From assembly GCF_053078305.1 (NCBI RefSeq), contig NZ_CP166879.1: a stretch of DNA of 64,000 nucleotides. One strand, 5' to 3'. The notes below the pieces were generated by a model. That model did no database searches, was not told the origin of the DNA, and was given only the letters and a program-made list of their open reading frames with translations. Of this stretch, positions 7,335-7,790 are shown piece by piece. Each line of letters starts with the position of its first letter. The stretch's first letter is position 1. Both the position numbers and the translations under genes were made by a program.

Positions 7335-7425
7335 CCCTGAGTTGGTGGCTCTGGCTGGAGTGAGAATGCCATCATCTAACGCATCAATGCTAATACCATA
7401 CTGAAACTATTGCAAGGACATGCTG
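7335..7425 (-). ncRNA. agrA: agrA-like antisense sRNA repeat (dinQ locus); boundaries approximate
   Basis: ~35 nt repeat ctctggctggagtgagaatgccatcatctaacgca, a near-copy of the second repeat at 7549..7584 and complementary to cattctcactcc in the dinQ leader (7624..7635). Confidence 0.4.
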
Positions 7426-7534
7426 GTTTTATAACCTGAATATACTGTATGATTATCCAGTTAGCTCTGAGGCATTTTCACTCTGGCAATGCGCATAAAC
7501 GCTTTCAAAGTCCTGATCAGTGGTACGGGTGGTG

Positions 7535-7625
7535 CCGTTAACTGATGCTCTGGCCGGAGTGAGAATGCCATTATCTAACAATAGGGCATGCGCCGTGACA
7601 GGCAATGGATGAGTAAGCGGATGCA
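7535..7625 (-). ncRNA. agrB: agrB-like antisense sRNA repeat (dinQ locus); boundaries approximate
   Basis: Repeat ctctggccggagtgagaatgccattatctaaca adjacent to dinQ; complement of dinQ 5' leader sequence. Confidence 0.4.
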
Positions 7626-7653
7626 TTCTCACTCCATCGTATGGAGAACACGG

Positions 7654-7737
7654 GTGATTGATAAAGCAATCATCGTTCTTGGGGCGTTAATTGCGCTGCT
7701 GGAACTGATCCGCTTTCTGCTTCAGCTTCTGAACTGA
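7654..7737 (+). CDS. dinQ: Type I toxin DinQ (27 aa membrane peptide), GTG start
   Basis: Small ORF translating V/MIDKAIIVLGALIALLELIRFLLQLLN*, matching the recalled DinQ peptide; convergent with gor as in K-12; absent from the supplied ORF track because it is short. Confidence 0.65.
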   Translation: MIDKAIIVLGALIALLELIRFLLQLLN

Positions 7738-7790
7738 TAGCGGAAACGTAATTAAGGGCTAAGAGCACACTACTCTTAGCCCTTTAACAT

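What the first reader, a model, noticed from the sequence alone, without database searches (positions are those of the whole stretch)
7335..7740. dinQ type I toxin with two antisense agr repeats
A 27-codon ORF (7654..7737, GTG start) encodes the hydrophobic peptide V/MIDKAIIVLGALIALLELIRFLLQLLN. Upstream on the opposite strand are two near-identical ~35-nt repeats (7347..7382 and 7549..7584), and the dinQ leader at 7624..7635 (cattctcactcc) is complementary to their ggagtgagaatg core. The short ORF is absent from the supplied six-frame track.
Basis: partly seen in the sequence, partly recalled or inferred. Interest (0 to 1): 0.35.

Follow-up and report, generated by a model that had tools for sequence, protein, structure and literature searches.

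The report
Known dinQ toxin locus, one antitoxin RNA
This is the well-known DNA-damage-inducible dinQ toxin / Agr antisense-RNA locus of E. coli, in a common natural form with one Agr gene instead of K-12's two; the "second Agr repeat" is the site in the toxin mRNA that Agr binds.

Summary
The sequence features are real. There is a GTG-initiated 27-codon ORF (7654..7737) identical to E. coli DinQ. There is a 33-nt direct repeat (7348-7380 / 7547-7579, 31/33 identical). There is a perfect 13-14-nt inverted match at 7623-7636.

The locus is the known dinQ/agr type I toxin-antitoxin system: NCBIfam toxin_DinQ scores 54 bits, Rfam AgrB scores 108 bits, and the closest annotated genomes are up to 99.7% identical.

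- **Only one agr gene.** It runs 7379->7296 on the minus strand. Relative to K-12, one 231-nt agr unit is absent. The second repeat lies downstream of the LexA box, inside the dinQ 5'UTR (nt 88-119). It is Agr's mRNA target, not a second agr.
- **7624-7635 has the same sense as Agr RNA.** It is published "element 3", which pairs within the mRNA with either the target region or the Shine-Dalgarno sequence.

The single Agr sits in the agrA position. It pairs with its target at 31 of 32 positions (-56.9 kcal/mol), matching K-12 AgrB:dinQ.

Side result: the duplex core is hypervariable across Escherichia and changes together in both partners. At least 1000 genomes carry a K-12-type agrB beside a non-cognate target. 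This is a known system of low to moderate interest.

The parts
7296..7379 (-). Single agr antitoxin sRNA gene, about 84 nt, with its 5' end at 7379. By position it is the orthologue of K-12 agrA. By pairing it is the equivalent of K-12 AgrB.
   Evidence: Rfam RF02891 AgrB scores 108.1 bits (gathering 40) across model positions 1-84. It aligns with K-12 agrA/agrB, and its upstream flank matches that of agrA.
7299..7325 (-). Rho-independent terminator hairpin of agr (AAAAAACCGAC / GTCGGTTTTTT), followed by a U-run on the minus strand.
   Evidence: Inverted repeat I5: 11 nt, 100% complementary. It forms the second hairpin of the Rfam consensus structure and of the predicted fold.
7348..7379 (-). 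Antisense (target-recognition) region: the first 32 nt of Agr RNA.
   Evidence: It pairs with dinQ mRNA 7547-7578 at 30 Watson-Crick pairs, 1 G-U and 1 mismatch, with RNAduplex -56.9 kcal/mol.
7387..7415 (-). Putative agr promoter: -35 TTGCAA at 7415..7410, a 17-nt spacer, and -10 TAGCAT at 7392..7387.
   Evidence: Inferred by reading the sequence. In the alignment, this stretch differs from the region upstream of K-12 agrA by no more than one base. K-12 agrA is expressed (PMC3567139). The generic promoter scan did not call it because it matches 8 of 12 positions, below the tool's threshold.
7443..7461 (+). LexA operator (TACTGTATGATTATCCAGT) overlapping the dinQ -10 region and +1.
   Evidence: It is identical to the K-12 box over 19/19 positions. 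It is described as the dinQ LexA operator with HI 4.83 in PMC3567139.
7460..7790 (+). dinQ primary (+1) transcript, about 330 nt. The processed, translatable +44 form would start at 7504.
   Evidence: +1 was placed by transferring the published numbering. All 15 checked letters agree (U16, C28, G88, G94, A119, U167, U178, A182, G184-G187, GUG195-197). There are no indels versus K-12 in this stretch.
7475..7487 (+). Element 1 (U16-C28). It pairs with element 2 in the inert +1 mRNA.
   Evidence: The MFE fold of the window's +1 RNA pairs nt 16-28 with nt 94-106. The predicted 1:2 duplex is -32.9 kcal/mol here, against -23.8 in K-12.
7547..7578 (+). Agr-binding site in the dinQ 5'UTR (G88-A119). 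It contains element 2 (7553-7565).
   Evidence: It aligns with the K-12 dinQ 5'UTR copy. The AgrB binding site is published as G88-A119. Pairing with Agr is shown.
7626..7637 (+). Element 3 (U167-U178). It pairs with element 2 (SD open, +44 form) or with element 4 (SD closed).
   Evidence: Inverted repeats I1 and I2. In the MFE folds, nt 173-178 pair with nt 182-187 in +1, and nt 167-176 pair with nt 97-106 in +44.
7641..7646 (+). Element 4 (A182-G187), including the Shine-Dalgarno GGAG at 7643-7646.
   Evidence: Published numbering. It is sequestered by element 3 in the +1 fold.
7654..7737 (+). dinQ coding sequence: GTG start, 27-aa single-transmembrane toxin.
   Evidence: NCBIfam NF041472 toxin_DinQ (equivalog) scores 54 bits against a cut-off of 30. 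PGAP annotates dinQ at the same coordinates. The peptide is identical in 87 of 90 loci examined, including E. albertii.
7754..7784 (.). Hairpin terminator shared by dinQ (+) and gor (-).
   Evidence: Inverted repeat I4: 12 nt, 100% complementary. The scan calls it a terminator-like site on the minus strand. PMC3567139 places the dinQ terminator just after the gor stop codon.

Best explanation
The region 7296-7790 is the E. coli dinQ/agr type I toxin-antitoxin locus in its single-agr form.

Mechanism, transferred from K-12 experiments to sequences that are conserved here:
1. LexA bound at 7443-7461 keeps dinQ off.
2. DNA damage releases a ~330-nt mRNA starting at 7460. This mRNA is translationally inert because element 1 (7475-7487) holds element 2 (7553-7565). 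That leaves element 3 (7626-7637) free to sequester the SD (7643-7646).
3. Removal of the first 44 nt frees element 2 to pair with element 3. The SD opens, and the 27-aa membrane peptide is made from GUG at 7654.
4. The constitutive ~84-nt Agr RNA (7379->7296) pairs through its first 32 nt with mRNA 7547-7578. This displaces element 3 back onto the SD and makes the duplex an RNase III substrate, so the toxin is not made.

What is specific to this window:
- There is only one agr gene. It sits in the agrA position, next to the dinQ promoter.
- That gene is the cognate antitoxin. The variable core of the duplex is AAUGCCAU in both partners, whereas K-12 dinQ and AgrB both have GAGUUCUU.

Shown here: the identity of all parts, the pairing, the predicted alternative folds, and conservation.

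Inferred: transcription, processing at +44, toxicity and repression in this strain.
For: - **Identity.** Up to 99.7% identical to annotated E. coli genomes, with dinQ called at the same coordinates. NCBIfam toxin_DinQ scores 54 bits. Rfam AgrB scores 108 bits across the full model.
- **Architecture.** The K-12 alignment shows one 231-nt agr unit absent, and the second repeat aligns with the dinQ 5'UTR copy.
- **Numbering.** The published element numbering maps with all 15 checked letters correct.
- **Folds.** MFE folds of the window's +1 and +44 RNAs reproduce the published 1:2 + 3:4 pairing and the alternative 2:3 pairing (model in PMC5066626).
- **Pairing.** Agr:target pairing is 30 WC / 1 GU / 1 mismatch at -56.9 kcal/mol. 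K-12 AgrB:dinQ is 31/0/1 at -57.0, and the non-functional K-12 AgrA:dinQ is 25/4/3 at -41.5.
- **Cognate copies elsewhere.** Every isolate locus with an agr gene that was examined, spanning E. coli, E. albertii, E. whittamii and a cryptic clade, has at least one agr copy with <=2 mismatches to its own target. Most differences between cognate partners are G-U wobbles.
- **The single-agr form is genuine.** It is present in many complete genomes. 1584 of 5426 lack the inter-agr spacer, and about 15% of sampled rows are single-agr. It also occurs in E. albertii.
Against: - There are no expression data for this strain.
- Neither the agr promoter nor the dinQ promoter was called by the generic sigma-70 scan.
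- Predicted SD accessibility does not separate +1 from +44, even for K-12 where the difference is shown experimentally. That calculation therefore neither supports nor contradicts the switch.
- In the +44 MFE fold, the SD is drawn into a weak 4-bp helix with nt 89-92.
- The window differs from K-12 at two positions just upstream of the LexA box, which could affect the weak second LexA operator or the -35 region.
Confidence: 0.93

Rival explanations
1. One reading: both repeats are 5' ends of minus-strand agr sRNA genes (agrA and agrB), and both act by pairing with the dinQ leader at 7624-7635.
For: The two repeats are 94% identical over 33 nt. K-12 does have two agr genes. On the DNA, 7623-7636 is complementary to both repeats.
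Against: - The similarity between the copies stops after 33 nt. K-12 agrA and agrB share the whole ~84-nt RNA, including the terminator.
- The second copy aligns with the K-12 dinQ 5'UTR (nt 88-119), 87 nt downstream of dinQ +1.
- The Rfam AgrB model finds nothing there at E<=1.
- Only one agr terminator motif exists in the locus.
- A minus-strand RNA from either repeat would carry the same sequence as 7624-7635, not its complement. This follows directly from the strands.
Confidence: 0.02
2. The locus is a decaying remnant. Loss of one agr unit, together with the neighbouring arsRB deletion, would be a step towards inactivation, as in ABU 83972-type strains, and dinQ would no longer be regulated or expressed.
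For: - One agr unit is absent, and arsR and most of arsB are deleted next door.
- Related strains carry a further 199-nt deletion between the two remaining repeats. It removes both promoters and the LexA box. This form is seen in about 15% of sampled loci.
Against: - Every functional element is intact here: LexA box 19/19, elements 1-4, SD, GTG, an identical peptide, both terminators, and the agr upstream region.
- The remaining Agr matches its target at 31 of 32 positions.
- The single-agr form is also the state in E. albertii and in a cryptic Escherichia clade. It is at least as likely to be ancestral as degenerate.
Confidence: 0.04

Closest known systems
E. coli K-12 dinQ-agrAB locus (Weel-Sneve et al. 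2013, PMC3567139; Kristiansen et al. 2016, PMC5066626)
   Same: - Same chromosomal site, next to gor.
- Identical 27-aa peptide and identical LexA box.
- The same four 5'UTR elements, SD and GUG start at the same transcript positions.
- The same terminators and the same Agr fold.
- Only 15 substitutions across the 331-nt transcript.
   Different: - One agr gene instead of two; a 231-nt unit is absent.
- The surviving gene has agrA's promoter side.
- The duplex core differs at 5 of 32 target positions, with matching changes in Agr.
- The predicted 1:2 and 2:3 helices are stronger: -32.9 vs -23.8 and -25.7 vs -20.3 kcal/mol.
- arsR and most of arsB are deleted on the far side.
dql (dinQ-like) genes of Enterobacteriaceae chromosomes and plasmids (Kristiansen et al. 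2016)
   Same: The same 5'UTR logic of mutually exclusive 1:2, 2:3 and 3:4 pairings, and a small transmembrane peptide.
   Different: The window holds dinQ proper, with 100% peptide identity and gor synteny, not a dql paralogue. No second dinQ-like or agr-like copy was found in the 64-kb window.
tisB/istR-1 (SOS-controlled type I toxin-antitoxin of E. coli)
   Same: As stated in PMC3567139: LexA-controlled toxin mRNA, a divergently transcribed sRNA with short complementarity in the long 5'UTR, and an inert primary transcript that needs 5' processing to become translatable.
   Different: It is an unrelated sequence at a different locus. From my own knowledge, IstR-1 blocks a ribosome standby site rather than redirecting an anti-SD element.
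zorO-orzO / zorP-orzP tandem type I loci (E. coli O157:H7)
   Same: From my own knowledge and the context (PMC5397157): a tandemly duplicated system in which small sequence differences in the sRNA-target duplex decide which sRNA represses which toxin mRNA, and a long 5'UTR that is processed to an active form.
   Different: In zor-orz the toxin gene is duplicated along with the sRNA. In dinQ/agr only the sRNA is duplicated, and there is a single toxin gene.

Membership tests
DinQ/AgrB type I toxin-antitoxin family | Small hydrophobic DinQ peptide (27 aa) matching the curated DinQ model | tested here: met
   NCBIfam NF041472 toxin_DinQ (equivalog) scores 54 bits against a cut-off of 30. The peptide is identical to WP_001295215.1, annotated at the same coordinates.
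DinQ/AgrB type I toxin-antitoxin family | SOS control: a LexA operator in the dinQ promoter | tested here: met
   TACTGTATGATTATCCAGT at 7443-7461 is identical to K-12. The operator is described in PMC3567139. LexA binding itself was not tested.
DinQ/AgrB type I toxin-antitoxin family | Long 5'UTR with four elements able to form mutually exclusive 1:2, 2:3 and 3:4 pairings around the SD | tested here: met
   The elements map at the published positions. MFE folds of +1 and +44 give 1:2 + 3:4 and 2:3 respectively.
DinQ/AgrB type I toxin-antitoxin family | A divergently transcribed, non-overlapping sRNA whose 5' ~31 nt are complementary to the 5'UTR target (G88-A119) | tested here: met
   Agr runs 7379->7296. 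It pairs with 7547-7578 at 30 WC + 1 GU of 32 positions, -56.9 kcal/mol.
DinQ/AgrB type I toxin-antitoxin family | Two paralogous sRNA genes, agrA and agrB (the K-12 arrangement; not required by T1TAdb, which says only some strains have AgrA) | tested here: not met
   There is one Rfam hit, one agr terminator and two (not three) repeat copies. A 231-nt unit is absent relative to K-12.
DinQ/AgrB type I toxin-antitoxin family | Toxicity of the peptide and its repression by the sRNA | not testable with these tools
   Shown only for K-12 (PMC3567139, PMC5066626).
Rfam RF02891 AgrB | Score at or above the curated gathering threshold over the full covariance model | tested here: met
   108.1 bits against a threshold of 40, covering model positions 1-84 of 84, with both hairpins formed.

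The most novel reading that the evidence does not exclude
The ~9-nt core of the Agr:dinQ duplex (dinQ nt 106-114) is a hypervariable 'specificity' segment with at least four allele classes across Escherichia. It changes together in the mRNA target and in one agr copy.

In the window, the cognate antitoxin is the promoter-proximal copy, at the 'agrA' position. The same holds in E. albertii and in most of the non-K-12-type isolate loci examined. K-12 is the reversed case: its dinQ target matches the distal copy (agrB). Its 'degenerate, non-functional' agrA carries the core seen as the proximal copy in UM146 and E. whittamii, where it pairs 29 WC + 2 GU of 32 with the local target.

The three copies are direct repeats read from opposite strands. 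Gene conversion between an agr gene and the 5'UTR would therefore automatically give a matched pair. Unequal recombination between the same repeats would give the 2-agr form, the 1-agr form and the promoterless fused form.

I found no paper describing this, but the search was limited.
Probability: 0.5. Interest if true: 0.45.

Novelty: already known. Interest (0 to 1): 0.25.

Why it matters
The locus itself is textbook, so nothing new follows from finding it. The correction is of practical use.

- In non-K-12 strains, the rule 'agrB is the antitoxin, agrA is inert' cannot be transferred by position or by name.
- In this window, the only agr gene sits in the agrA position, is labelled AgrB by Rfam, and is the cognate antitoxin.
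- At least 1028 complete genomes (2709 minus 1681) carry a K-12-type agrB next to a dinQ target it pairs with poorly, assuming every genome with the K-12-type target also carries K-12-type agrB; if not, the number is larger.
- Anyone knocking out the antitoxin, or interpreting SOS or persistence phenotypes in such strains, needs to choose the sRNA by its pairing with the local target.
- The promoterless fused form is still annotated as an intact dinQ toxin gene. Presence/absence surveys of toxin-antitoxin systems will over-count it.

Tried and rejected
- **Generic promoter scan.** It found one minus-strand site (7481..7452), no more than shuffles give, and missed both the dinQ and agr promoters. 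It was not used as evidence either way.
- **SD accessibility from partition functions.** I compared +1, +44 and the Agr-blocked state. Blocking nt 88-119 lowers SD accessibility in the +44 form in every allele tested (0.19 to 0.05 in the window), but the calculation does not separate +1 from +44 even in K-12. It was judged non-discriminating.
- **Rfam at E<=1 over 6500-8500.** It gave no family for the second repeat or for the dinQ 5'UTR. The sub-threshold naRNA4, ES036 and Spy779816 hits are REP-like or terminator-like and were ignored.
- **Search for a second dinQ-like peptide or agr copy in the window.** None was found.
- **Metagenome contigs as a larger test of the cognate-pair rule.** They were informative for architecture classes. 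However, 13 single-agr contigs pair poorly with their own target. These could be real, or could be collapsed or chimeric short-read assemblies across the tandem agr identity. The pairing rule therefore rests on isolate genomes only.
- **Counts by 45-mer.** These give allele frequencies but not per-genome co-occurrence. Co-occurrence was checked directly in only three genomes.
- **Is the window's single-agr form an assembly artefact?** I considered this and rejected it, because complete genomes share the form at 98.7-99.7% identity in one aligned piece.

Full report
**What is in the sequence**

Between an ArsC gene (6695..7120, minus strand; Pfam ArsC 82.9 bits) and glutathione reductase (7791..9143, minus strand) lies a 670-nt intergenic region. 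It holds a GTG-initiated 27-codon ORF at 7654..7737. It holds a 33-nt direct repeat at 7348-7380 and 7547-7579, 31/33 identical and 199 nt apart. It also holds a 13-14-nt segment at 7623-7636 that is perfectly complementary to the core of both repeats. The 13-mer GGAGTGAGAATGC occurs three times in the window, against 0.03 expected from shuffles.

**What it is**

- The region is up to 99.7% identical to complete E. coli genomes, and some match is found in 5422 of 5426 genomes. PGAP annotates 'damage-inducible type I toxin DinQ' at exactly the ORF's coordinates.
- The peptide hits the NCBIfam equivalog model toxin_DinQ at 54 bits, against a cut-off of 30.
- Rfam's AgrB model matches 7379->7296 on the minus strand at 108 bits (gathering 40) over its full length, with both hairpins formed.
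- This is the dinQ/agr type I toxin-antitoxin locus described by Weel-Sneve et al. 2013 (PMC3567139) and Kristiansen et al. 2016 (PMC5066626).

In K-12 the order is gor, dinQ, agrA, agrB, arsR. The K-12 sequence contains three copies of the repeat: one in agrB, one in agrA, and one inside the dinQ 5'UTR.

Aligned to K-12, the window lacks one 231-nt agr unit. Its second repeat (7547-7579) aligns with the K-12 5'UTR copy, downstream of the LexA operator TACTGTATGATTATCCAGT at 7443-7461. The similarity between the window's two copies ends after 33 nt. There is only one agr terminator motif in the locus, and the AgrB covariance model finds nothing at the second copy even at E<=1. The window therefore has one agr gene and one mRNA target, not two agr genes.

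Agr RNA is read from the minus strand, so it carries CAUUCUCACUCC, the same sequence as dinQ mRNA 7624-7635. The two cannot pair. Instead they compete for the same partner, GGAGUGAGAAUG, at 7556-7567 in the mRNA.

**Mapping the published mechanism**

Kristiansen et al. define these parts of the dinQ mRNA:

| Part | Published position | Window coordinates |
|---|---|---|
| Element 1 | U16-C28 | 7475-7487 |
| AgrB site | G88-A119 | 7547-7578 |
| Element 2 | G94-G106 | 7553-7565 |
| Element 3 | U167-U178 | 7626-7637 |
| Element 4 | A182-G187 | 7641-7646 |
| SD | G184-G187 | 7643-7646 |
| GUG start | G195 | 7654 |

With +1 placed at 7460, all 15 letters I checked agree, in both the window and K-12. 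The two 331-nt transcripts differ by 15 substitutions and no indels.

MFE folds of the window's RNAs reproduce the model. In +1, nt 16-28 pair with nt 94-106, and nt 173-178 sequester nt 182-187. In +44, nt 97-106 pair with nt 167-176.

The mechanism I commit to is the published one:
1. LexA represses transcription.
2. The primary transcript is inert (1:2 and 3:4 pairings).
3. Removal of 44 nt allows the 2:3 pairing and opens the SD.
4. Agr binding to nt 88-119 returns element 3 to the SD and creates an RNase III substrate.

The parts and pairings are shown here. Transcription, processing and toxicity in this strain are inferred. A partition-function estimate of SD accessibility did not discriminate +1 from +44 even for K-12, so I give it no weight.

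**Is the single Agr a competent antitoxin?**

Its first 32 nt pair with the window's own target at 30 Watson-Crick pairs, one G-U and one mismatch, at -56.9 kcal/mol. K-12 AgrB on K-12 dinQ gives 31/0/1 at -57.0. K-12 AgrA, which fails to repress, gives 25/4/3 at -41.5 (experiments).

By position the window's gene is agrA. Its upstream side, next to the dinQ promoter, differs from K-12's agrA upstream region by at most one base. By pairing it is the AgrB equivalent.

The window's core (AAUGCC) also lengthens the intramolecular helices. The predicted 1:2 helix is -32.9 against -23.8 kcal/mol in K-12, and the 2:3 helix is -25.7 against -20.3. This fits the idea that this core is well integrated with the invariant elements 1 and 3.

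**How ordinary is this form?**

- The inter-agr spacer is present in 3842 of 5426 complete genomes, so 1584 lack a second agr.
- An evenly spaced sample of 40 hits gave about 68% two-agr, about 15% single-agr and about 15% a shorter fused form.
- The window's 45-nt target allele is the commonest in the collection, at 2032 genomes against 1681 for the K-12 allele.
- Single-agr loci also occur in E. albertii and in Escherichia sp. E1V33. E. whittamii has two agr genes.
- T1TAdb already notes that only some strains carry AgrA.

The finding as stated is therefore already known.

**Side result worth recording**

The duplex core is hypervariable, while the DinQ peptide is identical in 87 of 90 loci, including other Escherichia species. 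In every isolate locus examined that still has an agr gene, at least one agr copy matches the local target with <=2 mismatches, and most differences between cognate partners are G-U wobbles.

Which copy is cognate varies. It is the proximal copy in the window, UM146, EH08-18-36, H9, O157:H7, E69 and E. albertii. It is the distal copy in K-12. In E. whittamii the two copies pair about equally well.

K-12-type agrB is present in 2709 genomes, but the K-12-type target in only 1681. In E2865, 120899 and 503025 I confirmed a K-12-type agrB (26/0/6, -40.1) sitting beside a window-type target whose cognate is the proximal copy (30/0/2, -52.4).

The copies are direct repeats read from opposite strands. 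Gene conversion between them would therefore produce matched pairs automatically. This is inference.

A search of the paper library for dinQ, agrA and phylogroup together found nothing. That search is narrow, so I cannot say the point is unpublished.

Metagenome contigs gave the same three architectures. They also gave 13 single-agr loci with poor pairing, which may be assembly artefacts.

**Verdict**

This is a real, correctly named, already-known system. The corrected anatomy fits the published switch exactly. Interest is low to moderate, carried by the specificity-allele pattern rather than by the locus itself.

Noticed in passing
window 7121-7190 (junction about 7182-7184); arsC 6695..7120 (-): arsR and all but the last ~49 nt of arsB are deleted, leaving arsC orphaned next to the agr gene. 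The same junction is present in 760 of 5426 complete E. coli genomes, including UM146 and ABU 83972.
   Followed up: partly
L003 (E. coli ABU 83972) 1660-1845, corresponding to window 7348-7546: A 199-nt deletion between the agr repeat and the dinQ-target repeat leaves one hybrid repeat. It removes the agr promoter and 5' end, the dinQ promoter, the LexA box and dinQ nt 1-87. PGAP still annotates dinQ as an intact toxin gene. This form accounts for about 15% of sampled loci (6 of 40 rows; 12 of 75 loci; alignment).
   Followed up: partly
L020-L022 (E. coli E2865, 120899, 503025); counts over 5426 genomes: K-12-type agrB occurs in 2709 genomes but the K-12-type dinQ target in only 1681. In the three genomes inspected, the distal agrB is non-cognate (26/32 paired) and the proximal 'agrA' copy is the match (30/32).
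   Followed up: partly
metagenome loci L023-L095: Thirteen single-agr contigs pair poorly with their own dinQ target. For example, seven have a K-12-type target with only the agrA-type gene. These could be real agrB-loss strains, or collapsed or chimeric short-read assemblies across the tandem agr identity. This is unresolved.
   Followed up: no
window 7453..7632 (-): A 59-aa GTG ORF lies antisense to the dinQ 5'UTR. It occupies the same position and strand as a 57-aa 'hypothetical protein' (WP_001296816.1) that PGAP calls in some genomes. It is probably a spurious call over the dinQ leader; the two protein sequences were not compared.
   Followed up: no
window 4845..6068 (-): An intact 407-aa AT-rich ORF with no Pfam match. 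The nearest genome annotates a frameshifted hypothetical protein at a comparable position.
   Followed up: no
window 197-228 (+) and 15377-15419 (-): Two Rfam hits above gathering threshold: the shuA/chuA 5'UTR thermoregulator (60.1 bits) and the ES036 (CssrF) sRNA (41.1 bits). The nearest genome has chuS close to dctR and slp, so the window starts in the chu haem-uptake region.
   Followed up: no
window 7436 and 7439: Two substitutions relative to K-12 (C->A and G->A) lie immediately upstream of the main LexA box, where the 2013 paper places a weak second LexA operator and the dinQ promoter. Their effect on SOS control is unknown.
   Followed up: no
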